Positions 3,350 through 45,391 of a DNA stretch of 64,000 bases are shown one piece after another (within the stretch, counting starts at the first letter, position 1; every line of letters starts with the position of its first letter). Under the pieces are notes generated by a model. The model was given only the letters and a program-made list of their open reading frames with translations. It was not told the DNA's origin and made no database searches. This DNA is from the human T2T-CHM13v2.0 reference genome, Homo sapiens. Location: NCBI RefSeq assembly GCF_009914755.1, contig NC_060928.1; one strand, given 5' to 3'. The position numbers and the translations under genes were made by a program.

Positions 3350-4000
<651 letters not shown>

Positions 4001-5192: not shown

Positions 5193-5686
<494 letters not shown>

Positions 5687-5989: not shown

Positions 5990-6755
<766 letters not shown>

Positions 6756-8170
6756 CAGAGATGAACTTGTTTCCCTTCTGCTAGGCCCGTAGTGAGGGTG
6801 TGTTTGTATTAATCGAGCCAGGAGTTAGGCAGAGTTTGAAGTTTGTTACTGCTATGGTTAGCCTTAGTGCATTAAAGGCTTCACACTCCCCTAGTGCTGT
6901 CTTTCATTTCTCAAACTGGATTCTACTGTTATTTTTACTCAACTCCTCTTAGTGTGGTTTTGGGAGTTGGGGAAGCCCATGTTTTCCAATATTCTGATTG
7001 AGCATGAGTCATGGGCAGGCACTCTGAACTCTGGTCTCAGGTATCTGTGGCCTTCACAAATGTTCTTCACCCTCCTCCAGATGTAATGCTGGGCCTAGCA
7101 CACATTCCCACATCTCACAGCACAAGGAAAATGACTGGCACATCTTCCAAGTCCCCTTTTTCAGGGAACTACCTGGTGATACGCTCACCAAAAGAAGGGA
7201 AGAAAACTAAGAAGGAAAACAAGGGACTCAGACAACAATAGACTTAAAACCTCTGGACATAAGACAGAAGATAAAAGATAATTCTTAGGGTAAGGGAAAC
7301 ATGAAAGGCCTCAGAGGACAGCTGTGCATCATATCACCAAATTTCAGTTCATGCTAAGATGACAGAGGGCTTCAGGAGATCGAGCACTACAAAGAAAATG
7401 AATATAATCAACAAATTACATGTCGAGTTTAGAGAGGAACTTTAGAGATTAGCAGATATGGGGCTGAAAGAGAAACAGAAAGTGCAGCAAGTAAGATATC
7501 AGGCAATTTTAATCACAATAAAACAAAATTTGTGTATCAAATTATAGCACCTAAGTGGCTCAGCTGTGAACAATTATATAGTCGTATGAACATATTAATC
7601 CAATTACATTACCATATTTGGATATTTGTGGGGAAAGAGAGTATGTGCCTGGGTGGTGCGAGAGACCTAAATTCTCAGTTTACCTAATAGAATTTTAATT
7701 TGAAATGTCTAATATTAGACATATTACAGTTATGGAGAAATAGCAAGGTCACTAGAATAAATCATGCCTCTGTTTAACAGGAATTTCACATAGGATGGCA
7801 TGACCCAGGAGATTTTCGTTTTTATAAAAGACTTTTGTTGCTGGACTGAACTAATAACTTTCTATATAATTTTTTTCTTTCGATATAATTTTTATAAAAT
7901 TCATAATGTGGAATTTTAATTCATAATGTGGAACGCATTGAATTAATGACTATACAAATAATACCATCTTTCATCTTAGAATATCAAAAATACTTTACAA
8001 TTTACTCCCATTACATCTTTGAAGAGTATGCATTTCTAATACTATTTTATTGACAGCTGCTAAAATAATGGAAGAAAAAAACCTTTCCTCCGCTTATAAG
8101 TGGTAAACACAGAATTCAGAATTGTGGAGCTCCTCTCCTAAATAAAAATACAAAATCATTTTCAAATAAT

Positions 8171-9480
8171 TCATCCTTCATAATCTATCACTGTACAGAT
8201 TATAAGAGGTTAGAAATCATACCCAGTGTGAAACACAGCCTAAGTAGTTTCATAAAAATATCACTTGAAGAAAAAATATGAGATCTGGCATTCAAGTTAT
8301 AAGATTAAACGTCACCCACTTCATTGTCCAGAAAAATCCTAATATTACTGGGTTTTACTTTTAATAGCAGAACGATTGACACTCTACCTACTGTAATGAC
8401 TTCAGCAAAGTTATTACATTTCTGTAGCTGAATACTAAAGCATGAATCCTATTGTGATAGTGTCTTTTTCCATCTCCTCAGAATACAATTCTAACAAACA
8501 ACACTGTTCTATCTATCCCGTTTGATTTTGTCTTCTTTCCCTTCCTCCTAGTAATACCAGTCTTAATCTTTTTGGATCATGAGTTTTTGTGGTATCTTTC
8601 CAAATCTCACTGTATTCTGTCTTCAGATATACAAGATTATGACATGCTGTTTCAGGATCTAGAGCGAAATCTATGTAAAATGAAGAATCTTTTGTCGACT
8701 ATAATGTTGTGGCAGAAGTCTAGAATCATCATTCCGTAGTTAAAATGCAAAAGCTCATGAAGGTTTTATCTTAAAACATGTTATTGATACATACACTTAT
8801 ATCAGTTACTGGTTGTCTATTTGAGTGAAGAGTTTGCTATCCCACTTATTAGAGCTTTTAATAAGAAAATATGGTCTGAAAGTTTTGTTTTCATCTAATG
8901 TGTGTATCATATCCTATCCTTTGTATTTTCGGGTTTCAGAACTGCATCTTATTCATTTTCCAAATAGAGTATAAAGTGCTCAAAATCAGAGTTTAATCTC
9001 TTCCTCTAATATTCAACTATCTTCGGTAGCATTCAACTATCTTCGGTAGCATTCATGTATTTTTAGTTAACATAACTATTAGTTTAGTTTTGGCTTATTT
9101 AAAACATTTTATACTTGCTTTTTCAGAGGTCAGACATCCCCTGTGAGCTTCTTCCTTGAAGCAGCCTGCTCTATAGGACAGGTGAGCCCAGCGGGAGCCA
9201 GCCCACTGCAGACCCAAACCCTCTAGTCCTTGTCACAAAAAGGGGCTGGGACCTGATGGTGATTATCTTCCTGCCTTTTCCTGGTGGTCCTTCTGAGTTG
9301 GAGTTGCTTGGTAATTTCAGTGGTGTGACAGCCGGAGTGTTGCTACTAAAATTCCTCCCTGGGCTGCATGAGCGGCTGACAGGGCACGGGGAGAAAACGA
9401 TTAGCTTCTCCCAGGATTGGTGAAGCCACCGCTGTTGGACAAGTATAGTCGTCGCTGGATCTCTGCAAAGAGACTGTCGA
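8171..9480 (-). pseudogene. Decayed TRIM60/61/75-family gene, left-arm paralog of the FAM218A locus
   Basis: Minus strand ~8280-8352 reads PSNIRIFLDNEVGDV*SYNLNARS, matching TRIM61 PSKIGIFLDYEMNEVSFYNLNDRS. Colinear with 36846-38143. Start ATG replaced by TCG. Confidence 0.85.
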
Positions 9481-9601
9481 AGCGGCTGCGGTTCAGCGTA
9501 AGGTCTGTTAGGGAGACCTGAAGCCCTGCGCCAGGAACGCAGTGCTCGCTTAGCCCACCCTGCAGGGATGGCTTTCCAGGCGCTGGGTCCAGTGAGAAAA
9601 G

Positions 9602-10265
9602 CGTGTCCGGAATTGGTTCCTTCCGGTGGGTTCTTGGTCTCGCTGACTTCAAGAATGAAGTCACGGACCTTCTTCGCGGTGAGTGTTATAGTTCTTAAAG
9701 ATGGTGTGTCCGGAGTGTGTTCCTTGCAATGTTCAGATGTGTCCGGAGTTTCTTCCTTCTGGTGGGTTCATGGTCTCGCTGACTTCAGGAGTGAAGCTGC
9801 AGACTTTCGCAGTGAGTGTTACAGCTCTTAAAGGTGGCACGTTCAGAGTTGTTTGTTCCTCCCGGTGGGTTCGTGGTCTTGCTGACTTCAAGAATGAAGC
9901 TGCAGATCCTTGTGGTGAGTGTTACAGCTCATAAAGGTAGTGCGGACCCAGAGTGAGCACAGCAAGATTTACTGTGAAGAGCGAAAGAACAAAGCTCCCA
10001 CAGTGTGGAAGGGGACCCGAGTGGTTGCCGCTACTGGCTAGGGTGGCCAGCTTTTATTCCCTTATTTGGCCCTGCCCACATCCTACTGACTGGTCCATTT
10101 TACAGAGCGCTGATTGGTCCGTTTACAAACCTTTAGCTAGACACAGAGTGCTGATTGGTGTGTTTTTACAGAGTGCTGATTGGTGTGTTTACAATCCTTC
10201 AGCTAGACAGAAAAGTTCTCCAAGTCCCGACTGGACCCAGGAAGTTCAGTTGGCTTCACCTCTCA
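9602..10265 (-). mobile_element. LTR12 (ERV9) solo LTR, left arm only
   Basis: Termini tgagaggtgaagc... and ...ccaattccggacac on minus strand, repeated gctgattgg (CCAAT) units, imperfect 4-bp TSD aaag/agag, empty site at ~36720. Confidence 0.92.
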
Positions 10266-11052
10266 AGAGCACAGCTGCCCTGCCACACGGCACATCCTTC
10301 CATCCACTGTGGTACCTGGCGCTGCCCCTGGTCTCCAACATCATCGACCTCCATGGTCTCACCCAGAAGTTGAAGTCCAGAGGCGGTGCCGGCCATGCAC
10401 AATCACTGCTCAGCTGCCCCGACTTCTGTACAGACTTGCTGGAGGTGTCGCCCAGCCACCTGCAGGAAGCACTGCAGGACACCTAGGCCTCCTGAGAACT
10501 TTGTATTCTGTGAGAAGTTTGCATTCTCAAGGAACCTCAGCTGTTTGGTTTGCTCTTCTGCCACCCACCTCTACCTGTGCCAGATTGAGGGCACTCCCTG
10601 CCCTACCCTAACAGAACAGGATTCCAGTTGCTGTTTTAATTTACTGAATGTTATTTGTAACTGGTGGGAGAAAAATGTGGTTATAATTCACACTGTAGAG
10701 CTTATTAAAAGTCACAGTAACACTATAATTGAAATATTGTATTTTAGGAAATAAATAATGAAATTATAAGATGAAATATAATGTACAGATGAAATATACA
10801 GATGAAATTGTACGATGTCTGGGAATTTGCTCCATTGGCAGGAGAAGCTGGTGGGGTTACAAAGATTGTTAATTCAAATAATAGAAATTGGTTTCTTTTT
10901 ATGCGTAGGTTCTTCATACTGTTCTCTCTACTCTTATGGATGTATGAAATACTCTACAATTTAAAAGCTTCCTTTTAACTTAGATCAACCAATTGAAGAC
11001 AAAGAACTAAATAAACAATGAAAAGAAAAGAAAACCAAAAAAACAAAATAGG

Positions 11053-11689: not shown

Positions 11690-13786
<2,097 letters not shown>

Positions 13787-15134: not shown

Positions 15135-16320
15135 CTATTGTTTAAATGTTTGTCTCCACAAACCTCTTGTATTATAAACAATCACCCATGTGATTCCACC
15201 GAGAGGTGGAACCTAATGAGAGGGGTTTAGGTCTCAAGGGCTCCCCCTCATGGATTCATGCCATGCTAAAAAAGAGCTTTCCAGGGTATATACACCCACT
15301 CTGCTCTCTTTTTCTTTTCTTTGAGATGGAGTCTTGCTCTGTCACCCAGGCTGGAGTGCAATGACACAATCTTGGCTCTGCCATCTCTGCCTCTGGAGTT
15401 CAAATGATCCTCCCACTTCAGCCTCCCGAGTAGGTGAGACTACAGCTGCATGCCATCATGCCCAGCTAAGTTTTGTACTTTTAGTCGAGATAGGGTTTTG
15501 CTGTAGCAGGACGAGCCACAGACAAAACCTCTCAGACACCGAGTTGTAGAAGGAAGGGCTTTATTCAGCTGGGAGCATCAGCAAGCTACTGCCTTAAAAT
15601 CCGAGCTCCCCAAATGCCCAATTTCTATCCCTTTTAAGGGCTCACCACACTAAAGATTTCACATGAAAGGGTCGTGATTGATTTGAGCAAGCAAGGCAGT
15701 ACGTGACAGGGGCTGCATGCACCGGTGGTCAGAGAGAACCAGAACAGGGCAGGGAGTTTCACAACGTTCTTCTATACAATGTCTGGAATCTATAAATAAC
15801 ATCAGTTTCTAAGTTATGAGTTGATTTTTAACTACTGGGTTTAGGCCAGGCAGGCCCAGGCCTGGTTTTGGGCCTGGCCTCGGGTTGCCTGTCTTTGGTT
15901 TTACTTCCTTGTTGTTTTTTCTTAAAACAGGTACTGAGTATAAAACAATATAAAACAATATGAGAGGGTCTCTCTCTTCCCTAATTGCCATTTTGGCCAA
16001 GCTGGTCTTCAACTCCTGGCCTCAAGTGATCTGCCTGCCTAGGCCTCCCAAAGTGCTGAGATTACAGGCATGAGCCACTGCACTCAGCAGCTCCACCTCT
16101 GCTCTTTAGCCATGTCAGGAACAGCGTTTCTCCCTCCAGAGGCTGCAGCATTGAAGGCACCATCTTGGAAGCAGAGACCAGGCACTCACCTGACACCAAA
16201 CCTGTCACTGCCTTGATCTTGAGCTTCCCAACTTCCAGAACGGTGAGAAATTAATTTCTCTTCTTTATAGATTACCAAATCTCAGGCATTCTCTCAAATC
16301 AGAACAAAATGGATTAACAT
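15135..16320 (+). mobile_element. MST/MLT-type MaLR LTR containing an Alu (15308-16090), which itself contains an LTR2
   Basis: MaLR motifs on both sides of the Alu; Alu halves on both sides of the LTR2. Confidence 0.7.
15502..15984 (-). mobile_element. LTR2-family (HERV-E/Harlequin) solo LTR
   Basis: agggaagagagagaccctctc...ggctcgtcctgctaca on minus strand, 4-bp TSD ttgc. Confidence 0.85.
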
Positions 16321-16549
16321 AAGTAATTGTAATTTTCAACTAATGCTCAATCTCCAAATAGTGACTTCTTGCTTCACACAAGTGACCACCAAATGAGCCC
16401 GTATATGGCACAGGATACAATTTTTCCCCTATGTGCTCTATAGAACAGGCACCAGTTTGGAGGTGAGACACACGAACAATTGGTCACAAATTAGAGTTCC
16501 CCCTGAACTTACATCAGTCACAGCTTATGTTAGAATCTAGAAACACACC

Positions 16550-17042
16550 ATGGAAAATTTAGGAAAGGCAGTGATTCTTATAGTTAAGATAAGGGATACC
16601 TCTTTTACCTTCATTTTATGATTAGTAATGTCACTAAGGTAATAGAGGGCTCTTCATTTAAAATCAGAGGGATCCCTGGTTACCTAATTGGAGGCAAAGG
16701 ATTAAGTCTGCGAAGGTTTTCCAATTGATGCATTTCAACAGATGTTGAAGTTCAGTCACCATCCAGGTTACAGAAACAGAAAAGTCAATTAGCACCTTTT
16801 AAGCTTTTGTGTTGTACAGATTCTTTTGGTGAATTTTGCATATTCAACTGGTAATTGCAAATTAGGAATTTCTGTTGCAGTTTTTGTTGTTGTTCCTCTC
16901 CTTGAATCTGTGATTTGGTTTTATTTTTCTTTTTATTCCCTGTCTCTCTGACGTTCATGTCCATTGTTTTTTATTCTTTTTTTTTTTTTTTGGAGACATT
17001 CAATACATTTTAGGGGTTATTCCTTTTAATGTGATTATGCTT
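16550..17042 (+). repeat. ~500-bp direct repeat, copy 2
   Basis: Colinear with 14200-14712; a single inverted copy sits at ~29995-30490. Confidence 0.9.
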
Positions 17043-17074
17043 TGACAATACATAATAATTTAACGTGATTATTG

Positions 17075-17200
17075 TCTAGGACAATACTGATTGTAACAGC
17101 TTGTGAAGAAGGTTCAATAGAGAAATAAGGCATAAACTTTTCTGTAAACTTATCAGTGGAATTATACACAGAGGATCTGTTTTTTAAATTATAAAAGACA
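17075..17200 (-). pseudogene. Isolated TRIM SPRY C-terminal fragment (counterpart ~29850-29970, + strand)
   Basis: FYNLKNRSSVYNSTDKFTEKFMPYFSIEPSSQAVTISIV resembles the end of the neighbouring TRIM pseudogene ([36 protein letters not shown]). Confidence 0.85.
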
Positions 17201-17978
17201 CAGCAATATGTCTGGACGGAGATGCACCACTCAAGGAGACAGTAAAAGGGACCTGAGTCCATGTTCCTATACTTAACTAACAAAATATTATCTAAATTAC
17301 TGACCTAGGTCAGAGAATTCTCTCAAAGAGTCTCAGCCAAACTCAGTAAAAGCAGCACAAAGCAGCTGAGCTGAAAGTGCAGGCTCATCATGTGGCACAG
17401 AGCCAGTGAGCAAAGCAAAGCTAGAACAGCAATTCCCTGAAGGTGGCAGCCAACATCTGGATAATCCTGCTCACAATGGCCTTTGAAGGGGTCAGTTTGC
17501 ATAGATAGTTTGCATTGAAGGGGTCAGTTTGCACCCTCCCTGACAACTGGTTCAGTGTTGAGACTGCTGATGCCACACAATCCAAGATTGTATGAAATGG
17601 ACTCCTACTCCTGTAATGAGGTTTATGAGGAGAGAAGGGTGTCTACAGAGTTGATGCAAAAGTGACTTGAGAAAGCAGGGAAAGGAGACTGGTTTGGGGT
17701 TGTGATGGTGGTCATGGGTGGGGCTGCTGAAAGGGTCCTGCACTACCAGAGGCTTGCTAGGTCTGAACCTCCCACCTACACCAACAGAGGGAGCACCCAG
17801 GCTTTCTCATCAGCTTGTCCAGGGAGGGCAGAAGGGAAGAGAGAAGAGTGAGTCCCCCAATAATATCAGCAGTCAAACATAAACATGGAATCAGAACTTT
17901 TATTACAAATGCCCTCCAAGAACACAGGAAGAAAATATAGCTACATACAAAGGGTGCTCTAAGTAGTTCATCATTGGT

Positions 17979-19651
<1,673 letters not shown>

Positions 19652-20696
19652 GGTGCAGGGAGGGATCTGTGTGGGGAGACTCCCTGCAGAAGGTGTGATT
19701 CTCCAGGAAGGAGGGAAAGTGAGAAGCTGGTGCCTCCTCAGCGTTCTGTCTCCTGCAAGCACTTCACAAGCTTGTGTCTGCTTCTTTCCCTTTGGCTCCA
19801 GAAGCAGCTCCAGGGGGAGGCAGGTCCCAGGGCACTGGCTGATCCCGTGACCCTGGATCCTCCTTTACTCAAATTCAAGCTACGCTCTTTTGTCGTGTTT
19901 CTCAGGAAGGGCCACAATTACAAGAGGTGATGGGAACTAATGACCATGTAAAATACTCCAGACTGTGAGACTTTCAACAGAACAGTAAGGCAGTTTCTTC
20001 AACTACAAAAGGAGAAAAAAGAATAAGATACTAAAGCACTGAAGAGCATGTATATCAATGAAAATAACTGCCTAATAATTTTCCTTACTTCTACATAAAC
20101 ACTTCTAAAAATAAAGTCCATTGAACTAGAAGAAATCTCATAAGTATTCACTAGTTATGATTTCTGATAATGATATTATGAGCTTAATATTTAAAAGAGG
20201 CTCTATATTTTAGACATTCATAGTGCAGTATTTACCCATAAGATTATATGTGATCCTGTGTTTGCTTCAAAGTATTGCAAAGTATAGGGATAAGGATATA
20301 AATCTGTAAGTGGATACACAGGGTTTGTTGTACTAATTTTGCTACTATTCTATACACTTTAGATGTTCTCAAGTAGAAAACATTATTGAAAAGGCTGACA
20401 GCCTGGACAACATGGTGACATGCTATCTCTATGAAAATAATGCAAAAAGTAGCCAGGCATAGTGGCACACACCTGTGGTCCAAGCTACTGGGGAGGCTCT
20501 GGTAGGAGGATCAATTGACCCTGTGAGGTTGAGGCAGAAATGAGCAGTTCGTGTGCCACTGGACTCTAGCCTAGGCAACAGAGCAAGATTCTGTCTAAAA
20601 TGAAATGAAATGAAATAAAAAGCTGAGCCTTATTGTCTCTGTGTCACTGTCTTCAAGCCAGACCCTCTTCTCTCTTACTCTCTTTTCTGAGCCTCA

Positions 20697-20852
<156 letters not shown>

Positions 20853-20947
20853 CTACTAAAAATACAAAAATTAGCTGGACATGGTGGTGGGCGCCTGTAA
20901 TCCCATCTACTTGGGAGGCTGAAGCAGGAGGATCGCTTGAACCCAGG

Positions 20948-23840
<2,893 letters not shown>

Positions 23841-26339: not shown

Positions 26340-26640
<301 letters not shown>

Positions 26641-27740
26641 CACAAGGGATTTTAGAGTTTCTAGATATAGCAGAAGTGAAAGATGAGGTTCAAAAATGAG
26701 AGTAAGAGAGAAGCTGGTCTGGCTTGGGGACAATGACAGAGAGACAATAAGACTCAGCTTTTTGTTTTATTTTATTTTATTTTATTTCATTCTATTTTAG
26801 ACAGGATCATGCTCTGTTGTCAAGGCTAGAGTCCAGTGGCACACTAACCGCTCACTGCAGCCTCAACCTCACGGTCTCAATTGATCCTCCTACCAGAGCC
26901 TCCCTAGTAGCTTGGACTACAGGTGTGTGCCACTATGCCTGGCTAATTTTTTTTTTTTTCATAGACATGGAGTGTCGCCATTTTGTCCAGGCTATCAGCC
27001 TTTTCAATATCGTTTTCTACTGGAGAACATCTAAAGTATATAAAATAGTAGCAAAATTAGTGCAACAAACACTGTGTATCCACTTATAAATTTATATCCC
27101 AATCCCTATACTTTGCAATAGTTTGAAGCAAACCCAGGATCACATATAATCTTATGGGTAAATACTGTACTACGAGTGTCTGAAATATAGAGCCTCTTTC
27201 AAATATTAAGCTCATAATATCATTATCAGAAATCATAACTAGTGAATACTTACGAGATTGCCTCTATCTCAATGGACTTTATTTTTAGAAGTGTTTATAT
27301 AGAAATAAGGAAAATTATTAGGTAGTTATTTTCATTGATATACATGCTCTTCAGTGCTTTAGTATCTTATTCTTTTTTCTCCTTTTGAAGTTGAAGAAAA
27401 CTGCTTTATTGTTCTGTTGAAAGTCTCAGTTGGGAGTATTTTACATGGTCATTAGTTTCCATCACCTCTTGTAATTGTGGCCCTTGCTGAGAAAGACAAA
27501 GAAAGAGTCCAGCTTGAATTTGAGTAAAGGAGGATCTGGTGCCAAGGGGTCGGCAGGTGCCCTGTGACCTGCCTCCCCCTGGAGCTGCTTCTAGAGCCAA
27601 AGGGAAAGAAGCAGACACAGGCTTGTGAAGTGCTTGCAGGAGACAGAACGCTGAGGAGGCACCAGCTTCTCACTTTCCCTCCTTCCTGGAGAATCACACC
27701 TTCTGCAGGGAGTCTCCCCACACAGATCCCTCCCTGCACC

Positions 27741-29100
<1,360 letters not shown>

Positions 29101-30599
29101 GCTAATGATGAACTACTTAGAGCACCCTTTGTATGTGGCTATCTTTTCTTCCTGTGTTCTTAGAGGGCATTTGTAAATAAAGCTTCTTATTCTATGTGTA
29201 TGTTTGACTGCTGGTATTTTTGGGGGGACTCACTCTTCTCTCTTCCCTTCTGCCCACCCTGGGCAAGCTGATGAGAAAGCCTTGGGTGCTCCCTCTGTTG
29301 GTGCAGGTGGGAAGTTCAGACCTAGCAAGCCCCTGGTAGTGAAGGACCCTCTCAGTAGCCCCACCCATGACCACCATCACAACCCCAAACCTGTCTCCTT
29401 TCCCTGCTTTCTCAAGTCATTTTTGGACCAACTGTGTAGACACCCTGCTCTCCCCATAAACGTCATTACATGAGTAAGAATCCATTTCACACAATCTTGG
29501 AGGTGTGGCATTAGCATTAGCAGTCTCAACACTGAACCAAATTGTATGCAAACTGACCCCTACAATGGGCATTGTGAGCAGGATTATCCAGATGTTGGCT
29601 GCCACCTTCAGGGAATTGCTGTTTTAGCTTTGCTTTGCTCACTGGCTCTGTGCCCCATGACAAGCCTGAACTTTCAGCTCAGCTGCTTTGTGCTGCTTTT
29701 ATTGAGTTCGGCTGAGGCTCTTTGAGAGATTTCTCTGACCTAGGTCAGTAATTTAGATAATATTTTGGTATTTAAGAACAGGAATATGGACTCAGATCCC
29801 TTTTAATGTCTCCCTGAGTCATGCATCTCAGTCCAGACATATTGCTGTGTCTTTTATAATTTAAAAAACAAATTCTGTGTGTATACTTTCACTGATATGT
29901 TTACAGAAAAGTTATTTATCTATTGAAACTTCTTCACAAGCTGTTACAATCGGTATTGTCATGGACAATAATCACGTTAAATGATTATTATGTATTGTCA
30001 AAGCATAATCACATTAAAAGGAACAACCCATAAAGTGTATTGCATGTCTACAAAAAAAGAATAAAAAATAATGGACATGAAAGTCAGAGAAATCAGGAAT
30101 AAAGAGAAAGAAAGATAAAACCAAACTATAGATTCAAGGAGAGGATCAAAAAAAAAAAAAAAAAAACTGGAACAGAAGTTCCTAATTTGCAATTTCCAGT
30201 TGAATATGCAAAATTTATCAAAAGAATCTGCACAACACAGAAGATTTAATGGTGCTGGTTGACTTTTCCTTCTCTATAACTTGGATGGTGATTGAACCTC
30301 AGCATCTGTTGAAATGAATCAGTTGGAAAACTCATAGATGTAATCCTTTGCCTCTAATTAGTTAACCAGGGATCCCTCTGATTTTAAATGATGAAGCCTC
30401 TATTACCTTAGTGATGTTACTGAACATAAAATGGAGATAAAAGAGGTATCCCTTAACTATGAGAATCACTGGTTTCCCTAAATTTTCCATGATCAGAGCA
30501 CACACTGGGATGATATATCAAAGAGAAAAAAAGAGATAGGATAAGTAATAAATGCAATTACATTAAGTCTTCTGAATTTTCAAACTAGCTTTACAAAAT

Positions 30600-32000
30600 G
30601 GGATCCAAAGGATGTTCCTGACCCCAGTGAAAAAAAGATAATATGACTAAATATTAGCTAAAATAGGATACTCAAGAATTGAAACCCATGATACAAGACC
30701 TAGGAGTGATTATCTCACTGTTTCTGGGTTCAACCCCAATTTTGTGTGTTGTTACACTTTGAAACAAGTATGACATCTCAGAGTGAATTGATAACAGCTT
30801 TAATCGGATGATCTCTCCCAATGTTATTGACATGATTTACTCCATCCAATCAGCAAGTGGTAAATATCTGGCTACTAAAGATTTGGCTAGTTTTTTTCAG
30901 GCCTATTTCTACAGCTTCCTGGCCATGCTTTCCCTTTACCTCAAAGGAATTTTATGCATCTCTACCCACTAATCGTGGGCACCTCAGCAGTCTTGCCTTT
31001 GCACACAGACCTTGTAGGGAAGATTCCAACTTCATTCAACTTCTTCCAGAACAGCAGGTATGATTTACATGGATGACATTCTCCTCCATGGTGATCCGTT
31101 TGAAACACTCATTCAAGCCATGAAAATACTCACAAAAGAGTTTACACAAAGGGAATGGGTCATTTCCCCCATACAGTGCAAGCCTCTTATTCGATTAATT
31201 GCCTGAAAATTATTTGGTAAACTGAAAGCAACTCCATCTCTGACACTGTGGAGAAACAGCTATAAAACCTTTCAATGCCCACAATGTGAAAACAAGCCCA
31301 GTATCTTTAACACTTTTTGGATTCTGGAGGAAACAGACTCATCATTTATAAATTTTGCTTAAGGTCACTTATGCTGTTACTTCCAAATCCACCCATCTTT
31401 AATGGGGCCCCCTCCACGAAAGGCCTACAGACTCTAAATTGTAGTACATTAAGCTCTCACAGGCACTGAGCCTCTAACTCTTCATACTCAGTTGCTCAGC
31501 ATGCCTTGGATTCTAGAAGCAGCACCCTGCTAGTTCAGCACAGGTATAGGAGGAATCCTTGTTACATCATAGAGCCAGACGCAGGCCCTCTGCCATATTT
31601 CATCCACAGGAAGGGGTAGCCTGCCTACCTTGTCCTTAGTCCCTGCCACATGCCACTGGGTTTAGGAGATGGCTCCTCTCTTAGGTCCTTTGGCTACCTG
31701 AGAGACCTCCCCCTCACACCTCCGGGATCAAATGATAAACAGCAGTGGGGGTTTATACACTGTAAGGATGGCATAACCATTGCCATGCATGATGAGCTCA
31801 GTAGGGATTTACTACTTTTCATTTATTAATCAGGACATTCTTAACAAGCAAAAGGACTCCAAGGTCAGTCAATGGATGGAACTTCAGGCCATCTTCTCAG
31901 AATTGGAGCCCCTGACCAATGATCAGCCCAATATGCAGTTTTACTAACTATGGAGCCATAGCCTTGGAGTTACCTGCTTCAGAGTAAAGAATTCTTGCCT
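30600..32000 (+). mobile_element. Ancient ERV-L-like pol remnant (RT and RNase H)
   Basis: YMDDILL at 31066-31086, a DLA..FF.PIS..FPFT-like stretch upstream, RNase H-like SQWMELQAI ~31868. Partial inverted copy at 13720-14100. Confidence 0.7.
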
Positions 32001-33604
32001 CACAAATATCCAAAATCTAACTCAAGGTCACACATTTCTCTATATACACTAAGGCCACAATACGAAACCTCAACAGGATCTGGAACTCCTTTGGAGTTCC
32101 AGACATTACTGAGAGGGACCAAAGACTCATTTCACTTCCCAGAATATGCAATGCTGGGGTCCTGAAGAAGGCATTCAATGGAATTGTAACTTCCCTTACT
32201 AGATTAAGCTGTCAGCTTCATTAAGCACCATAAAGGCTTACTCAAACAAGTTCAAATTCAATGAAATGAAACATGGTGCATCTAATCAACAGTTAAACAT
32301 CAGGGTGTGGGGGAATCCTACAAAATAGTTCAAATCCATTTTTACAGTTTTTCACCCTTGATAACTTTTAATCGTCACTCCTCCATTTTTTTCTTTGGCC
32401 GCACATTTGGGCAACCTGCCAAGAAAGCCCAGGTGCTCCCTCCTTCAGGGCAGGAAAGAGATTCAAACCAGGCAACTTTCATTGTGAATGAGTGATCCCT
32501 CACCCTGCCCACACCTTAACCTGAAGAAAAACACCAAGCCCGTCTTCTTTCTCTGCTCTCACAGTCCATTTACAGACCACCTACAGGCCTGTGCTGCTCT
32601 CCTTCAACACCCCAGCATGTGAGAAACAAACCTGTTCCTATCCTTCTAGTGTGTGTGTGGGTGTGTGGCATAATCAGTCTTTATATCTGGACTAAATTTG
32701 ATGGGTGTTCAATTTTTCCCATGTGGGGTTGACACAACAATAATTAGGATGCTGTATGATCTCAGTTTAATTATTGGGATATTATGGAAAAGTCCCAACA
32801 TGCAGAAAGAGAGACATAATTGTACAATAGATCACCCCAACCCCCATAGATCCATTACACAATTTCAATAATTATTATGGTCAATTTTATTTTATCAAGA
32901 TCATGCTCTACCTTCCCCAAATCATTTTAATGCAGTATTCATACATCATATCATTTTATCTATATCTTAAAATAAATCACTAAAAGAACGATTTTAAAAG
33001 TGTAAGTGCAGTATAGGTATCACATTTAATATTTAAATATAGTTTCATTCCCTCTCTGGGTGGTCCACCCTCCCCGCACCTCAAGGTGTTCACAAATCTC
33101 AAAGCTCCTCATATTACTTTCTTCAAGAATTTGTATAAAGTTTATTTTCCAGGTCCCCCCACCATCCTACTGAAAGTTCTAATCACTTGGTCTTCTGTGA
33201 GTAGCCCTATCCTGAGGCTACCCTGGGGCCCCAACCCAACCCACCTCATTAGCATAAATCCAGTTGATCCAAAGGGGCTCATTATGAATAACAAAAGACT
33301 GGCTGGGAGCCATGGCTGTAATGCCAGCACTTTGGGAGGTCAAGAAAGGAGGATAAGGCCAGGAGTTCCAAACTAGCCTGGCCTACATAGTGAGACACCG
33401 TTTCTTCAAAAAGAATAATTTTTAAAAATTAGCTGGGCATGGTGATGTGTGCCTGCAGTCCTAGCTATTTGGAAGGTTGAGGCTGGAGGATTGCTTGAGC
33501 CCAGGAGTTCCAGGTTACAGTGAACCATGACTGCATCACTGCACAACAGGGTGACAGAGCAACATCCTGTGTCCAAAAAAAAGTGAAACAAAAAAACCCA
33601 GCAC

Positions 33605-33720
33605 TTGCCCTTATGCTCCACTCAGTGCATGATGTGTTACTTCCGCAGCTCCCACCCCATCACAACCATTCTGCAGGTCCCTACCCCTGTCCCCTTCACC
33701 AACCCAGGACCCTGCAGGAG
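33605..33720 (+). pseudogene. 5' fragment of the IER3 retrocopy in the right arm
   Basis: atgtgttacttccgcagctcccacccc...attctgcaggtccctacccctgtccccttcacc, ATG 33632; matches 13130-13205. Confidence 0.8.
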
Positions 33721-34638
33721 CAATCAGAGAACAAGAGAGAACTGCCCTCTGGGACCTGTCACTTCCCCCATGCTGACTGCATAAGGAAAAAAAAACTCCC
33801 TACAGGGTTTAAGACTGAATTCGTTCTGAGGTCACCATTTTGGTGAACAAGAAGTAGGGACTGTGTTGCGTCTTCTGACCTGGATCGACGAAGAAACAGC
33901 TCTGCAAGGATGGAAAAAGCTGACAATCCCCAGTGAACTGCTGACAAGTGAATACAGGTAGGCTCCGCACCCTACACTAACCCTCTACTGGGAGCAGAAT
34001 ATCTGAGTGAGGATTGCACCAGGAGGCACAGGTGAGCTACACTCAGTAAAGGGCGTGCAGCCTTTGGCTGGACCTAAGCTGGGGAAAGTAGCCACATAGG
34101 AAGGAACCTTGGGGAGTTCGTGCATTTTATTTTTTAACCATCAGTTTTGTATTATTAGAAAGATAAACATTCCAATATACATCTAAAATTATATATATTG
34201 ATTATAATTCAATATGTTCTTGTATTAATTAGCATATTTATATGTACATATTATACAGAAATACATATAATTACATACCTTACAAATGTAATTAAAATTT
34301 TATTATGGTATAGGAACATATACATACCCTACACATGGTTGGCAGCATGGCTATAATCCCAGCACTTTGGGAGGTCAAGGCAGGAAGATCGCTTGAGGTC
34401 AGGAGTTCCAGACCAGCCTGGGCAACCATCTCTACAAAAAATAAAATATAAATATGCTGTTTTATATTTACTTAAAATTTTATTGGCCCAGCACAGTGGC
34501 TCATGCCTGTAATCCCAGCACTTTGGGAGGCCAAGGCAGGCAGATCACAAGGTCAAGAGATCGAGACCATCTGGCCAACATGATGAAACCCTGTCTCTAC
34601 TAGAAATACAGAAGTTAGCTGGGCATGGTGGAGGGCAC

Positions 34639-34825
<187 letters not shown>

Positions 34826-35723
34826 CTATTTGGTTCACTCTTTACTCTGACATCGTATATGAGACAGTTCTTTTGTATGTTGTATGACAATCACAGATTT
34901 GGACTTCTCATAAGGGGCCTCATGCTGGTTTGCCCTAATTACATCTAATTATGTCTGAACTGTTCTGCATAATCAGCATATCTACCATTAAACAGTCAAC
35001 AGAAGAATCAGAAACACAAACCATTCTTGGAATATATTGAGTTCTGTGCCACACCAAATCCTATGTTTTAAAAAATTTTTTCCAGGCTGAGCTCAATGGC
35101 TCAAGACTGCAACCCGAGTAGTGTGGGAGGCCCAGGCAGGAAGATTGCTTGAGGTCAAGAGTTTGAGGCTACAGTGAGCTACGAACTTGCCACTGCAGTC
35201 CAGCCTGGGTGACTAAGAGAGATTCAGTCTCAAAAAAAAAAAAAAAAAAAAAACAAGTTTTCCAGAAGATATGTCTTTATTGGTGTTTATATTTACAGAA
35301 AACTTAAAGGGAAATTGAGGTTGATTTTCCTTGTCTTCATGTGACCACAAAAGGATGAAGAGAGGATATCAGGGACCAGCCCCAGATGACTCAGGTAATC
35401 TGAGACCAGGCCTGGGATCCACACACAAGACACACACACCCAGATGGAAGCACAATGCCTAGTCTCGCTCTTTCCTCAATCCCGATTTAAACTAATTTGG
35501 CAGTTTTATGAGATTAAAGAGGGTGTAGACAGGAAATTGGTAGAGGATGGAAAATCGATTAAGATTAGGGACAACTGTGAGGAGGAAGACAAAGGAGACA
35601 GAATCTGAGAGCCCTGAGGCGGACTGAAAACGGGGAGGCGGCTCAAAGAAAAGAGTAAGAGAAATGAGCTTTTCTGGAACGAGGCATTGATAACGCTGAA
35701 ACATGATTAGCCTTTTGAAATAA

Positions 35724-36089
<366 letters not shown>

Positions 36090-36499
36090 TGAAGAACGTA
36101 CACATAAAAAGAAACCAATTTCTATCATTTGAATTAACAATCTTTATAACCCCAGCAACTTCTCCTGCCAATGGAGTAAATTCCCAGACATCTTATAATT
36201 TCATCTGTATATTTCATCTTATAATTTCATTATTTATTCCCTAAAAGACAATATCTCAATTATCATAGTGTTACTGTAACTTTTAATAAGCTGTTCAGTG
36301 GGAATTATAACCATATTTTTCTCCAACCAGTTATAAATAAGATTCAATAAATTAAAACAGCAACTGGAATTCTCTTCTGTTAAGGCGGGGCAGGGAGAGC
36401 CCTCAGTCTGGCACAGGTAGGGTTGGGTGGCAGAAGAGCAAAGCAAACAGCTGAGGTTCCTTCAGAATGCAACTTTCTCACAGAACACAAGGCTCTCAA

Positions 36500-37020
36500 G
36501 GGGCTTCAGCACCCCAAGCACTGCAGCGTTTCTCCCAGGAGGCTGGGCGAGTCCGTAGCGGAAGTCGGAGCGGCAGAGCAGTGATTGGGTGCGGCCGGCA
36601 CCGTCTCTGGGCTTCGACTTCCGGGTGAGACCGTGAAGGTGTGGCGCGACGTTGGAGACCGGGGCAGCGCCATGTACCACAGTGGATGGAAGGATGCGCG
36701 GTGCGGCGGGGCAGCTGTCCTCTTCTCCCCGGACCCAGCGCCTGGAGAGCCAGCCCTGCAGGGTGGGCTGGGCGAGCCAAACTGCGTTCCTGGTGCAGGG
36801 CTTCGGGTCTCCCTAACAGACCTTATACGCTGACCGGCGGCCGCCATGGCAGTGTCTCTTTGCTCAGACATCCAGGGACGACCACATTCGTCCAACAGCG
36901 GTCGCTCCACCAATCCTGGGAGAAGCGAATCGTTTTCTCCGCGTGCCCTGTCAGCCGCTCATGGTGCCCAGAGAGGAATTTTAGTGGCAGCATTCCGGCT
37001 GTCACGCCACCGAAATTGCC
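36500..37020. promoter_or_regulatory. CpG island / FAM218A promoter region
   Basis: High CpG density, ETS-like cggaagt and cttccgg, inverted CCAAT (gattgg ~36583). Confidence 0.75.
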
Positions 37021-37159
37021 AGGCCACTCCAAGTCAGAAGGACCACCAGGAAAAGTCAGGAAGAGAACCACCATCAGGTCCCAGCCTCTTTTTGTGACAA
37101 GGACTAGAGGGTTTGGGTCTGCAGTGGGCTGGCTCCCGCTGGGCTCACCTGTCCTATAG
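36686..37159 (+). CDS. FAM218A: FAM218A 157-aa ORF (coding status doubtful)
   Basis: MEGCAVRRGSCPLLPGPSAW...GWLPLGSPVL; single exon, antisense within a TRIM61 intron; recognised from memory. Confidence 0.7.
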   Translation: MEGCAVRRGSCPLLPGPSAWRASPAGWAGRAKLRSWCRASGLPNRPYTLTGGRHGSVSLLRHPGTTTFVQQRSLHQSWEKRIVFSACPVSRSWCPERNFSGSIPAVTPPKLPGHSKSEGPPGKVRKRTTIRSQPLFVTRTRGFGSAVGWLPLGSPVL

Positions 37160-38143
37160 AGCAGGCTGCCTCAAGGAAGAAGCTCACAGGGGACATCTGA
37201 CATCTGAAACAGCAAGTGTAAAATGCTTTAAATAAGCCAAAACTAAACCAATCGTTATGTTAACTAAAAATACATGAATGCTACCGAAGATAGTCGAATA
37301 TTAGAGGAAGAGATTAAACTCTGATTTTGAGCACTTTGTGCTTTATTCGGAAAATGAATAAGATGCAGTTCTGAAAACCTGAAAATATAAAGAATAGGAT
37401 ATGATACGCACACTAGATGAAAACAAAACTTTCAGACCATATTTTCTTATTTAAAGCTCTAATAAGTGAGATAGCAGAGTAAACTATTCACTCAAATAAT
37501 TAGTAACTGATATAAGGGTATGTATCAATAACAGGTATTAAGACAAAAACTTTATGAGCTTTTCCATTTTAACAAGGGATGATGATTCTAGACTTCTGCC
37601 ACAACATTATGGTCGACAAAACATTCTTAATTCATTTTACATAGATCTGACTCTAGATTCTGAAACAGCAAGTCATAATCTTGTATCTCTAAAGATAGAA
37701 TACAGTGCGATTTGGAAAGACACCACAAAAACTCATGATCCAAAAAAGATTAAGGCTGTTATTACCAGGAGGAAGAGAAAGAGGACAAAATCAAACTGGA
37801 TAGATATAATAGAGTTGTTTGTTAGAATTGTCTTCCCAGGAGATGGAAAAAGACGCCATCACAATAGGATTCATGCTTTAGTTTTCAGCTATAGAAATGT
37901 AATAACTTTGCCAAAGTAATTACACTACATAGAGTGGCAATCGTTCTATTAAAAGTAAGACCCAGTAATGTTAGGATTTGTTCTGGACAATGAAGGGGAT
38001 GAGGTTTAATCTTATGACTTGAATGCCAGGTCTGAAATCTTTTCTTCAAGTGATATTTTTATGAAACTACTTAGGCTGTGTTTCACACTGGGTATGATTT
38101 CTAACCTCTTATAACCTGTACAGTAATAGATTATGAAGGATGA
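36846..38143 (+). pseudogene. Decayed TRIM60/61/75-family gene underlying FAM218A
   Basis: gccgccATGG at 36846; SWEK..CPVSRSWCPERNF; ATEIARPLQVRRTTRKSQEE; DLTLDSETASHNLV; terminal PLITCTVIDYEG*; AATAAA 38255. Confidence 0.88.
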
Positions 38144-39924
38144 ATTATTTGAAAGCTATTTTGTATTATTTAGGAGAGGAGCTCTTCAATTCTGAATTGT
38201 CTGCCACTTACAAGCAGAAGAAAGTTTTTTTCTTTCATTATTTTAGCAACTATCAATAAAACAGTATTAGAAATGCCTACTCTTCAGAGATGTAATGGGA
38301 ATAAATTGTAAAGTACTTTTGATATTCTAAGATGAAAGATGGTATTACACAGTCAATAATTCAATGCTTCCCACATTATGAATTTTATCAAAATTATGTA
38401 GAGAGCTATTAGTTCATTCCAGCAACAAAACAGGCTTATATAAAAACAAAAACCTCCTGGGTCATGCCATCCTACACCAAATTCCTGTTAAACAGAGGCA
38501 TGATTTATTCCAGTGACCTTGCTATTTCTTCATAACTGTAATATGTCTAATGTTAGACATTTTAAATTAACATTCTATTAGATAAACTGAGAATTTAGGT
38601 CTCTCGCACCACCCAGGCACATACTCTATCTTTCCCCACAAATATCCAAATATGGTAATATAATTGGATTAATACGTTCATATGACTATATAATTGTTCA
38701 CAGCTGAGCCACTTAGGTGCTATAATTATAATTTCTTTGATACACAAATTTTGTTTTATTGTGATTAAAATTGCCTGATTTCTTACTTGCTGCATTTTCT
38801 GTTTATCTCTTTCAGCCCCATATCTGCTCATCTCTAAAGTTCCTTTCTAAACTCGACATGTAATTTGTTGATTATATTCATTTTCTTTATAGTGCTCAAT
38901 CTCCTGAAGCCCTCTGTCATCTTAGCATGAACTGAAATTTGGTGATATGATGCACAGCTGTCCTCTGAGGCCTTTCATGTTTCCCTTACCCTAAGAATTA
39001 TCTTTTATCTTCTGTCTTATGTCCAGAGGTTTTAAGTCTATTGTTGTCTGAGTCCCTTGTTTTCCTTCTTAGTTTTCTTCCCTTCTTTTGGTGAGCGTAT
39101 CACCAGGTAGTTCCCTGAAAAAGGGGACTTGGAAGATGTGCCAGTCATTTTCCTTGTGCTGTGAGATGTGGGAATGTGTGCTAGGCCCAGCATTACATCT
39201 GGAGGAGGGTGAAGAACATTTGTGAAGGCCACACATGCCTGAGACCAAAGTTCAGAGTGCTTGCCCATGACTCATGCTCAATCAGAACATCAGAGAACAC
39301 AGGCTTCCCCAACTCCCAAAACCACACTAAGAGGAGTTGAGTAAAAATAACAGTAGAATCCAGTTTGAGAAATTAAAGAGACATATCACTAGGGGAGTGT
39401 GAAGTCTTTAATGTATTAATGGTAACGATAGCAATAACAAACTTCAAACTCTGCCTAACTCCTGGCTCGATTAATACAAACACACCCTCACTACGGGCCT
39501 AGCAGAAGGGAAACAAGTTCATCTCTGCTATTGGTTGAATTGTGTTCTCCCGAAAAAGTATGTTGAAGGGCTAACTCCAGTACTTCAGATGTGACCTTAT
39601 TTGGAAATTAGGTCTTTAGAAGGTAATTGGTCAAAATGAGGTCATTAGGGTGGGCCTTAATCCAGTATCACTGCAGTCCTTATAAAAAGATGAAATTTTG
39701 ACACAAAGATATGCACAGAGGAAGATTATATGAGGAAACACGGGGGAATGCCATTGGAGTGATGCATCTACTAGCCAAGGAATGCCAAAGATTGGCAGCA
39801 ACACAACAGAACCTGGAGGCATGGAAGAAATTCTATATCACAGCCCTCAGAACAAACCAATCCTGCCAACACTCATAATTTGGACCCAGCCTCCAGAACT
39901 GTGAGACAATAAATTTCCTGTTAT

Positions 39925-45391
<5,467 letters not shown>

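What the first reader, a model, noticed from the sequence alone, without database searches (positions are those of the whole stretch)
36686..38143. FAM218A is built on the remains of a TRIM gene
Seen: colinear TRIM homology along the locus. FAM218A residues HQSWEKRIVFSACPVSRSWCPERNF (from 36908) match TRIM61 IMSWKDLHDSFPCPFCHFCCPERKF in frame. 37006-37065 reads ATEIARPLQVRRTTRKSQEE in another frame (TRIM61 LTEIAKQLQIRSKKRKRQEE). B-box, coiled-coil, PRY (DLTLDSETASH) and SPRY-end remnants follow, and a strong-Kozak ATG remains at 36846. Inference: the orphan ORF joins former 5' leader, one in-frame RING piece and frameshifted TRIM sequence. It is either a transcribed pseudogene or an ORF newly born from one.
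Basis: partly seen in the sequence, partly recalled or inferred. Interest (0 to 1): 0.8.

Follow-up and report, generated by a model that had tools for sequence, protein, structure and literature searches.

The report
FAM218A is a decayed TRIM gene
The human transcript FAM218A is the transcribed wreck of an ancient TRIM60/TRIM61-type gene, and its 157-codon "orphan" reading frame shows no sign of being a maintained protein, so this is an ordinary transcribed pseudogene with a tidy explanation for an orphan ORF.

Summary
From window 36905 to 38137 the locus aligns colinearly with TRIM61 residues 40-471. My frameshift-aware alignment scored 331, against 33-57 for 12 reversed or shuffled controls. 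It needs 10-12 frameshifts and 13-14 stops. The in-frame RING piece is significant alone: 0 of 110,362 background windows reach its score.

The ORF (36686-37159) has three parts:
- 73 codons with no detectable homology
- 34 codons read in the old TRIM frame
- 50 codons of linker and B-box read out of frame

Two details of the reading fail. The ATG at 36846 is real but derived, not a leftover start. The "former 5' leader" cannot be shown.

The copy was dead before an inverted duplication made FAM218BP: 12 of 14 stops are shared. In trees it is sister to TRIM60+TRIM61.

The ORF looks neutral:
- dN/dS against FAM218BP is 1.33
- human-macaque identity is 84%
- it matches no Pfam family
- mean pLDDT is 43.5

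What sets FAM218A apart from seven other family copies is a CpG island at its 5' end.

Verdict: a transcribed unprocessed pseudogene. TRIM ancestry was not found in the papers searched. Interest is modest.

The parts
36500..37100 (+). CpG island at the 5' end of FAM218A. It holds the annotated transcript start (36611) and most of the ORF.
   Evidence: GC is 0.56-0.66 and CpG observed/expected is 0.58-0.86 in 200-nt windows. There are 42 CpGs in 36495-37094, with o/e 0.72. Seven other family copies give 0.10-0.36 at the same position, and FAM218BP gives 0.30-0.54.
36611..38794 (+). FAM218A single-exon transcript, as given in the annotation supplied with the finding (NR_160935.1).
   Evidence: Coordinates come from the hub's gene table and were not tested here. 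An ATTAAA lies at 38764, 30 nt before the annotated end. No Rfam family matches 36000-39000.
36686..37159 (+). The 157-codon FAM218A ORF.
   Evidence: Listed. No Pfam match at E<=1. AlphaFold2 mean pLDDT is 43.5 and pTM 0.10, with no secondary structure. dN/dS against FAM218BP is 1.33. An ORF this long arises in 20 of 2000 dinucleotide shuffles of 36611-37250.
36686..36904 (+). ORF codons 1-73. No demonstrable homology to any TRIM sequence. Presumed to be the decayed leader plus the first half of the RING.
   Evidence: All tests are non-significant. Spacing from residue 41 puts the old start codon near 36788-36797. MAFFT aligns the family ATG to 36795-36799.
36846..36848 (+). ATG in a GCCGCCATGG context, opening an 83-codon ORF in a frame that is not a TRIM frame.
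   Evidence: Sequence; ORF. It is absent in FAM218BP. Leu replaces His at the overlapping codon in 3 monkey gene models, so the ATG is inferred to be derived.
36905..37005 (+). Second half of the RING finger plus linker, read by the FAM218A ORF in the original TRIM frame (TRIM60/TRIM75 residues 40-72).
   Evidence: Ungapped alignments to TRIM60 and TRIM75 start at 36905. Only C53 and C60 of the local cysteines survive; C56 is now S and C59 is now W.
37006..37185 (+). Linker and B-box remnant in a frame shifted by one base. The ORF reads 37007-37156 of it out of frame.
   Evidence: tblastn gives 44% identity over 70 residues. The B-box (TRIM61 93-133) maps to 37063-37158, with 32 of 41 residues aligned and 13 identical. 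Four of 10 B-box Cys/His are kept.
37188..37646 (+). Coiled-coil remnant.
   Evidence: TRIM61 134-296 maps to 37159-37646, with 155 of 163 residues aligned and 53 identical. It contains multiple stops and frameshifts.
37647..38092 (+). PRY and SPRY remnants.
   Evidence: PRY (297-345) maps to 37647-37770 with 19 identical residues. SPRY (350-456) maps to 37777-38092 with 38 identical residues. A blastn hit 37599-37730 to the TRIM61 CDS has 75% identity and E 3.9e-17. Generic Pfam PRY and SPRY models do not detect them.
38093..38143 (+). C-terminal tail and the old stop region.
   Evidence: TVIDYEG* aligns to TRIM61 TVTDSE*.
6655..10977 (-). FAM218BP, the inverted paralog. It is the only other copy found in the genome.
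   Evidence: blastn shows 83-89% identity. The genome DNA search found only this copy. It is split by a 668-bp insertion at 9602-10264. Twelve of 14 stops are shared with FAM218A.

Best explanation
FAM218A is a transcribed, unprocessed pseudogene. It is the relic of an old third member of the TRIM60/TRIM61 branch of the 4q32.3 TRIM cluster.

Shown:
- The whole single-exon TRIM coding body is still recognisable in order from window 36905 to 38137: second half of the RING, linker, B-box, coiled coil, PRY, SPRY and tail.
- It is broken by about a dozen frameshifts and about 13 stops.
- The gene was already dead when a roughly 19-kb inverted duplication produced FAM218BP.
- The 5' end of FAM218A, alone among the family copies examined, is a CpG island.
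- The 157-codon ORF lies inside this GC-rich, stop-poor stretch.
- The ORF is a patchwork of unrecognisable 5' sequence, 34 codons in the old TRIM frame and 50 codons of linker and B-box read out of frame.

Inferred:
- The island acts as a promoter for an unspliced 2.2-kb RNA ending after an ATTAAA signal.
- The ORF is a by-product of base composition and evolves neutrally.
- If anything is maintained here, it is the unmethylated promoter or regulatory island, not a protein.
For: Homology:
- tblastn E 4.6e-15.
- Four colinear blastn hits to the TRIM61 CDS.
- Frameshift-aware scores 331, 291 and 203 against controls of 33-57.
- The RING piece is unmatched in 110,362 background windows for TRIM61 and TRIM75.

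Decay:
- 10-12 frameshifts and 13-14 stops.
- 0 Pfam families on the three frames read with X at stops.
- RING and B-box zinc ligands are mostly lost.

Dead before the duplication:
- FAM218A and FAM218BP are 90.4% identical.
- 12 of 14 stops are shared.
- 7 of 10 frameshift sites have no A/BP indel within 15 nt.
- The duplication arms are 26428-45093 and 20951-1596.

Placement:
- FAM218A+BP is sister to TRIM60+TRIM61 in a reference-free DNA tree (UFBoot 88) and a codon tree (97).
- It holds the same position in 32-taxon protein trees whether frames were chosen with TRIM61 or TRIM75. SH-like support for the TRIM60+TRIM61 split is 0.995 and 1.0.

Neutral ORF:
- dN/dS is 1.33. Differences by codon position are 14, 18 and 11.
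- Human-macaque identity is 108/128.
- The probability of no new stop after 44 random substitutions is 0.18.
- Mean pLDDT is 43.5.
- An upstream ATG at 36672 in another frame precedes the ORF's ATG, which has T at position -3.

CpG island.

[quoted passage not shown] The annotation supplied with the finding lists it as lncRNA.
Against: - The ORF is longer than expected. Only 20 of 2000 shuffles reach 157 codons.
- The same frame, start and stop are open in FAM218BP.
- Gene models for the ORF exist in five monkey species.
- PMC6101605 says databases carried "protein evidence" from interaction screens.
- I had no RNA, ribosome-profiling, peptide or human-variation data, so transcription and non-translation rest on annotation and inference.
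- The monkey proteins are gene models that may hide frameshifts in small introns.
- The tree position sits on a very long branch: 0.40 substitutions per site in DNA and 0.83-0.90 in protein.
- The first 40 codons and the leader cannot be aligned, so the 5' limit of the relic is not fixed.
Confidence: 0.8

Rival explanations
1. The ORF is translated into a primate-restricted, disordered small protein born from the pseudogene. It re-uses 34 RING-derived codons and reads the rest in new frames.
For: - The ORF length is in the top 1% of shuffles (20/2000).
- Frame, start and stop are kept in FAM218BP.
- Gene models from macaque, colobus, two snub-nosed monkeys and capuchin share the start MEGC.
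- Interaction-screen "protein evidence" is mentioned in PMC6101605.
Against: - dN/dS is 1.33, and substitutions are not concentrated at third positions.
- Identity to macaque is only 84%, about what neutral DNA would give. That expectation rests on recalled genome-wide divergence figures.
- Indels and locally shifted segments occur in FAM218BP and capuchin.
- Retention of an open frame has a neutral probability of about 0.18.
- The first AUG of the annotated RNA is 36672, in another frame, and the ORF's AUG has a weak -3 T.
- There is no Pfam match and no predicted fold.
- The supplied annotation calls it lncRNA.
Confidence: 0.1
2. The RNA or the DNA element has a non-coding function. The island would be a promoter or enhancer acting on neighbouring TRIM genes, or the RNA would act as a regulatory lncRNA. 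The pseudogene body would be only a passenger.
For: - The CpG island is retained only in FAM218A (o/e 0.72). Seven other family copies give 0.10-0.36 and FAM218BP gives 0.30-0.54.
- This pattern is expected if the island stays unmethylated in the germline.
- The supplied annotation lists enhancer elements at 36361-36410 and 36711-36870.
- The locus lies inside the long TRIM61 transcription unit, on the opposite strand (hub table).
Against: - No functional data are available here.
- The body downstream of the island diverges from FAM218BP at 9.6%, with no conserved block noticed.
- No Rfam family matches.
- FAM218A RNA and TRIM61 mRNA are both in TRIM sense orientation, so they are not complementary.
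Confidence: 0.25
3. It is a processed retrocopy of a TRIM61 or TRIM60 mRNA rather than a relic of tandem gene duplication.
For: - The family's coding sequence is a single exon, so absence of introns says nothing either way.
- TRIM61-type proteins give the best alignment scores. The top score among 120 mammalian proteins is 362, for a rhinoceros TRIM61-type protein.
Against: - It lies inside the 4q32.3 cluster among seven or more related copies.
- In four trees it branches outside both TRIM60 and TRIM61.
- No match to the upstream TRIM61 leader was found.
- I did not look for a poly(A) tract or target-site duplications.
Confidence: 0.05
4. The similarity to TRIM genes is a chance or compositional artefact.
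For: - Generic Pfam RING, B-box, PRY and SPRY models find nothing.
- The part upstream of 36905 is not significant.
Against: - Colinear protein and DNA matches run across 1.2 kb with E-values of 1e-15 to 1e-17.
- The score is 331 against a control maximum of 57.
- The same result is obtained independently in FAM218BP, with scores 357, 346 and 282.
Confidence: 0.01

Closest known systems
TRIM61 and TRIM60 (RING, B-box2, coiled coil, PRY/SPRY; 4q32.3 cluster). TRIM61 is window 49661-48246 on the minus strand; TRIM60 is L002:1501-2916.
   Same: - Same domain order and the same single-exon coding layout in the same cluster.
- Colinear alignment from residue 40 to the last residue: 157-160 of 415 aligned residues are identical to TRIM61 and 140 of 398 to TRIM60.
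- In trees it is the sister of the TRIM60+TRIM61 clade.
   Different: - No intact frame: 10-12 frameshifts and 13-14 stops.
- The zinc ligands are mostly gone.
- Pfam domains are undetectable.
- The first 40 codons are unrecognisable.
- The 5' end is a CpG island, unlike TRIM61 (o/e 0.10) or TRIM60 (0.36).
- It is not a copy of either gene but an older branch.
FAM218BP (window 6655-10977, minus strand)
   Same: - Inverted paralog at 90.4% identity.
- Shares 12 of 14 stops and most frameshifts.
- Has the same ORF frame, start and stop.
   Different: - It is split 35-40 nt after the ORF start by a 668-bp repeat insertion.
- Its CpG content is partly decayed.
- It lacks the ATGs at the positions matching 36672 and 36846.
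Transcribed pseudogenes that were catalogued as orphan protein-coding genes (the class discussed in PMC6101605; passages read)
   Same: - An orphan ORF with no family.
- Weak conservation.
- "Protein evidence" only from interaction screens.
- Later reclassified as non-coding.
   Different: Here the parent family can be named and the ORF dissected codon by codon. The passage read in PMC6101605 does not name a parent family; the other 24 papers returned by the FAM218A and C4orf39 searches were seen as listings only, apart from passages of 3.
LOC391711 and LOC391710, the neighbouring TRIM pseudogene pair in the same inverted duplication
   Same: Same cluster and same duplication event. Both are TRIM60-family relics.
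   Different: They are much younger wrecks. LOC391711 has 3 frameshifts and 0 stops over residues 1-453. They belong to a different branch of the family. They have no CpG island.

Membership tests
TRIM60/61/75 subfamily of tripartite-motif genes (by descent) | Colinear sequence homology across RING, B-box, coiled coil and PRY/SPRY | tested here: met
   From residue 40 to 471. Scores are 331, 291 and 203 against controls of 33-57. Domain map. DNA hits. Residues 1-39 are not alignable.
TRIM60/61/75 subfamily of tripartite-motif genes (by descent) | Location in the 4q32.3 cluster with the single-exon coding layout | tested here: met
   It lies between LOC391711 and TRIM61 in the window, and the homology is uninterrupted by introns.
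Functional TRIM E3 ligase | Intact open reading frame through all domains | tested here: not met
   10-12 frameshifts and 13-14 stops.
Functional TRIM E3 ligase | C3HC4 RING and B-box zinc ligands present | tested here: not met
   C56 is now S and C59 is now W. The first six RING ligands lie in the unalignable part. Four of 10 B-box Cys/His are kept. No Pfam RING or B-box hit.
Transcribed unprocessed pseudogene | Homology to a parent family, with disabling lesions that are inherited rather than recent | tested here: met
   12 of 14 stops and 7 of 10 frameshift sites are shared with the paralog FAM218BP.
Transcribed unprocessed pseudogene | Evidence of transcription | not testable with these tools
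   This rests on the supplied RefSeq row (NR_160935.1, BestRefSeq). The CpG island and the ATTAAA at 38764 are consistent with it.
Transcribed unprocessed pseudogene | Not a retrocopy: no poly(A) remnant, lies in the parental cluster | tested here: inconclusive
   The cluster location and tree position argue for tandem origin. I did not look for a poly(A) tract or target-site duplications.
Protein-coding gene, including a young gene born from a pseudogene | Purifying selection on the ORF | tested here: not met
   dN/dS is 1.33 against FAM218BP; the other two frames give 0.82 and 0.72. Identity to the macaque gene model is 84%. There is only one paralog comparison, and no primate DNA was available.
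Protein-coding gene, including a young gene born from a pseudogene | Translation or peptide evidence | not testable with these tools
   No ribosome-profiling or proteomic data are held here. In the one passage read from the listed papers that bears on protein evidence, PMC6101605 says it came only from interaction screens.
Protein-coding gene, including a young gene born from a pseudogene | Recognisable domain or predicted fold | tested here: not met
   0 Pfam families at E<=1. Mean pLDDT is 43.5 and pTM 0.10 from a 7-row alignment. That is weak evidence, because the alignment is shallow.

The most novel reading that the evidence does not exclude
A 157-codon frame assembled from pseudogene debris may have been kept open since before the simian radiation, and may be translated into a disordered, fast-evolving primate protein. 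It consists of unrecognisable 5' sequence, 34 codons still in the old RING frame and 50 codons of B-box sequence in a new frame. It is open in both arms of the inverted duplication and modelled in five monkey species. If translated, it would be a dated example of a coding sequence born from a dead gene under a newly acquired CpG-island promoter.
Probability: 0.08. Interest if true: 0.65.

Novelty: new member of a known kind. Interest (0 to 1): 0.3.

Why it matters
It gives a concrete origin to an "orphan" human gene symbol that has moved between coding and non-coding status. The ORF's family-less sequence is explained because most of it is TRIM sequence read in the wrong frame or decayed beyond recognition. 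That supports treating FAM218A and FAM218BP as TRIM pseudogenes in annotation. It also argues for caution about protein-level claims for FAM218A in interaction and expression screens, and in association studies at 4q32.3.

The result adds an older, previously unplaced branch to the history of the TRIM60/61/75 cluster. The one feature that deserves a second thought is how a dead gene's 5' end came to carry, and keep, a CpG island that none of its relatives has.

Tried and rejected
1. Placing the ancestral start codon and leader.
- MAFFT alignments of family 5' ends put the family ATG at 36795-36799.
- An nhmmer profile of four family 5' ends gave E 0.27-0.65.
- Local DNA alignments were matched by 31-289 of 300 shuffles.
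- Frameshift-aware alignment of residues 1-40 was matched by 42-281 of 400 shuffles.
- The placement is therefore left open.
- A 9/9 match of ATGGCAGTG at 36846 to the TRIM75 start was seen, but 45 of 300 shuffles matched it. I rejected it as evidence because of the FAM218BP and monkey data.

2. Generic domain detection. Pfam found 0 relevant families on the three frames read with X at stops. One BRICHOS hit at E 0.17 is taken as noise.

3. Looking for an intact ortholog.
- 120 mammalian TRIM60/61/75-family proteins (the best 120 of 1486 hits) were each aligned to the locus. Scores were 127-362, against 331 for human TRIM61.
- None stands out, so no intact ortholog was identified.
- The list is biased toward TRIM61-like proteins, and synteny in other mammals could not be examined.

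4. Known RNA families: none in 36000-39000.

5. Other copies in the genome: only FAM218BP, plus a 58-nt match on chromosome 15.

7. An IQ-TREE protein run with bootstraps did not return. I used FastTree instead. The unsupported tree left by the interrupted run had the same topology.

8. The TRIM61-guided codon alignment inflated the A-to-BP distance to 0.196, against 0.088-0.096 by direct alignment. Branch lengths are therefore not used for dating.
Full report
**What is there**

The window is human chr4:168268001-168332000, as stated in the supplied annotation and confirmed. The ORF 36686..37159 on the plus strand (157 aa) is the FAM218A ORF. TRIM61 is encoded intact at 49661-48246 on the minus strand. 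It is 471 aa and carries Pfam RING 16-56, B-box 93-133, PRY 297-345 and SPRY 350-456.

**Check of the observation**

tblastn of TRIM61 against the locus gives two hits:
- TRIM61 75-144 against 37009-37185, 44% identity over 70 residues.
- TRIM61 160-462 against 37245-38111, 25% identity over 326 residues with stops read through.

The summed E-value is 2.75e-16 on the 3.5-kb region and 4.6e-15 on the whole window.

At the DNA level, four colinear blastn hits link 37009-38153 to the TRIM61 CDS at 69-76% identity, best E 3.9e-17.

A protein-to-DNA aligner that I wrote, which allows frameshifts, aligns TRIM61 residues 26-471 to 36821-38137.
- Score 331, with 160 of 415 residues identical, 12 frameshifts and 13 stops.
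- A faster version of the same algorithm gives the same score by a slightly different path: 157 of 415 identical, 10 frameshifts and 14 stops.
- TRIM60 and TRIM75, taken from the same genome as L002 and L005, score 291 and 203.
- Three reversed and nine shuffled proteins score 33-57.

The aligned tail ends at 38137, and a TGA follows at 38141-38143.

- Ungapped scores are 41, 31 and 45 against TRIM61, TRIM60 and TRIM75.
- Of 110,362 background windows, 0, 2 and 0 reach these scores.
- The TRIM60 and TRIM75 alignments begin there without gaps, at 36905.

Generic Pfam models see nothing in any of the three frames. The homology is visible only with family sequences.

**Anatomy of the ORF**

Frames along the relic are listed.
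- The ORF frame coincides with the TRIM frame from 36905 to 37005. These are codons 74-107, 34 codons.
- A one-base shift at 37006 means codons 108-157 read the linker and B-box out of frame.
- Codons 1-73 (36686-36904) match nothing.

Tests on the part upstream of 36905 all failed:
- A four-gene nhmmer profile gave E 0.27-0.65.
- Local DNA alignments were matched by 31-289 of 300 shuffles.
- Residues 1-40 of three TRIMs were matched by 42-281 of 400 shuffles.

The leader and the first half of the RING are therefore either decayed beyond recognition or replaced. Counting back 40 codons from residue 41 gives about 36788. MAFFT puts the family ATG at 36795-36799.

The ATG at 36846 has a perfect GCCGCCATGG context. 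However:
- FAM218BP has no ATG there.
- Macaque, colobus and capuchin gene models carry Leu where human has His (CAT).
- Leu requires a T at the position of the A of the human ATG.

The ATG is therefore most simply a recent change on the human or ape lineage. This is an inference from predicted proteins, not from DNA.

**History**

The only other copy in the genome is FAM218BP. It lies in the left arm of an inverted duplication whose arms are 26428-45093 and 20951-1596, at 83-91% identity. The same duplication pairs LOC391711 with LOC391710.

- FAM218A and FAM218BP are 90.4% identical over 1445 aligned bases.
- 12 of 14 stops in the TRIM reading are shared.
- 7 of 10 frameshift sites have no A/BP indel nearby.
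- The gene was therefore dead before the duplication.

Monkey gene models sort by paralog.
- Macaque and colobus are closer to human FAM218A: 108/128 and 95/117, against 91/127 and 79/115 to FAM218BP.
- Two snub-nosed monkey models are closer to human FAM218BP: 97/128 and 93/126, against 87/128 and 85/126.
- The duplication therefore predates the split of apes and Old World monkeys.
- The 9.6% divergence is of the order of human to New World monkey divergence. That figure is recalled, not computed.

Trees give a consistent placement.
- Reference-free DNA tree: FAM218A+BP is sister to TRIM60+TRIM61 (UFBoot 88), with a stem of 0.40 substitutions per site.
- Codon tree guided by TRIM61: the same position, support 97.
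- Protein trees of 32 taxa have TRIM61-, TRIM60- and TRIM75-type proteins from many mammalian orders and two TRIM39-like outgroups.
- They give the same position whether the pseudogene frames were chosen with TRIM61 or with TRIM75. SH-like support for the TRIM60+TRIM61 split is 0.995 and 1.0; for the next split it is 0.93 and 0.85.

Both the TRIM60 and TRIM61 clades contain carnivores, ungulates, bats, rodents and primates. The FAM218A lineage therefore appears older than that radiation. This rests on a very long branch.

None of 120 mammalian family proteins aligns markedly better than human TRIM61. Scores run from 127 to 362, and the best is a rhinoceros TRIM61-type protein. No intact ortholog was identified. 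That list is the top 120 of 1486 hits ranked by similarity to TRIM61, so it is biased.

**Is the ORF a gene?**

Evidence for:
- An ATG ORF of at least 157 codons occurs in only 20 of 2000 dinucleotide shuffles of 36611-37250.
- The frame, start and stop are open in FAM218BP, apart from the insertion and a short locally shifted stretch.
- Five monkey gene models exist.

Evidence against:
- dN/dS between FAM218A and FAM218BP in the ORF frame is 1.33. Differences by codon position are 14, 18 and 11. The other two frames give 0.82 and 0.72.
- The chance of avoiding a new stop over the observed 44 substitutions is about 0.18 under neutrality.
- Identity to macaque is 84%.
- There is no Pfam family.
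- AlphaFold2 on the 7-row alignment gives mean pLDDT 43.5 and pTM 0.10, with no secondary structure.
- Three ATGs in three frames lie within 23 nt: 36672, 36686 and 36694. The first of them is not the ORF's.

**What distinguishes the locus**

Window 36500-37100 is a CpG island.
- It has 42 CpGs in 600 nt, with o/e 0.72 and GC 0.62.
- The same position in TRIM61, TRIM60, TRIM75, TRIM60P14, LOC391711, LOC391710 and LOC391713 has o/e 0.10-0.36.
- FAM218BP is intermediate at 0.30-0.54.

The annotated transcript starts inside the island at 36611. It ends 30 nt after an ATTAAA at 38764. I infer that an unmethylated island drives an unspliced RNA across the relic, and that the stop-poor GC-rich sequence yields the ORF.

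**Literature**

- Searches for FAM218A found 19 papers and for C4orf39 found 6.
- FAM218A together with TRIM found 8 papers.
- TRIM61, TRIM60, TRIM75 and pseudogene together found 1 paper.
- I read passages only of PMC6101605, PMC3609646, PMC9430305, PMC6021240 and PMC2533329. The rest I saw only as listings.
- None of the passages derives FAM218A from a TRIM gene.
- Pseudogene databases and GENCODE could not be consulted and may already flag it.
- Supplements were not opened.

**Verdict**

The locus is a transcribed TRIM pseudogene: a new, well-explained member of a known kind, of modest interest.

Noticed in passing
window 1596-20951 (left arm) and 26428-45093 (right arm): A roughly 19-kb inverted duplication with a 5.5-kb spacer and 83-91% identity. 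It pairs FAM218BP with FAM218A and LOC391710 with LOC391711.
   Followed up: partly
window 27741-29088 (+): LOC391711 is a nearly intact TRIM. It has 3 frameshifts and no stop over TRIM61 residues 1-453 at 45% identity, so it is a much younger loss than FAM218A. A chromosome 10 copy (L009) groups with its twin LOC391710 (support 72).
   Followed up: no
L004/L006 (just left of the window) and L003/L008 (chromosome 2): Two very recent TRIM61 copies. TRIM60P14 is 96% identical at protein level, with 1 frameshift and 1 stop. A chromosome 2 copy matches at 426 of 469 residues, with 2 frameshifts and 2 stops.
   Followed up: no
window 9602-10264: A 668-bp insertion splits FAM218BP 35-40 nt after the ORF start. 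It contains internal repeats of about 135 bp (9603-9835 against 9739-9938, 71% identity). From memory it resembles an LTR12-type solo LTR; that was not tested.
   Followed up: partly
window 36672-36696: Three ATGs in three different frames lie within 23 nt at the 5' end of the transcript. They open ORFs of 53, 157 and 40 codons. The ATG at 36672 is AGG in FAM218BP.
   Followed up: partly
window 36506-36871 (-): A 121-codon antisense ORF lies in the same CpG island. It shows how readily long ORFs arise in this stop-poor sequence.
   Followed up: no
protein P0050: A protein filed as a Plasmodium vivax hypothetical protein is 83% identical to human TRIM61 over 72% of its length. It is probably host primate DNA in that parasite assembly.
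   Followed up: no
proteins P0026 and P0112: Marmoset and owl-monkey proteins named "Tripartite motif-containing protein 5" by UniRef are 84% and 59% identical to TRIM61. They look misnamed.
   Followed up: no
window 36969-36971: Human reads W (SRSWCPERNF). Macaque, colobus, capuchin and human FAM218BP read C at this position, matching the CC of TRIM61 FCCPERKF. The monkey copies therefore resemble the RING slightly more than the human one does.
   Followed up: no
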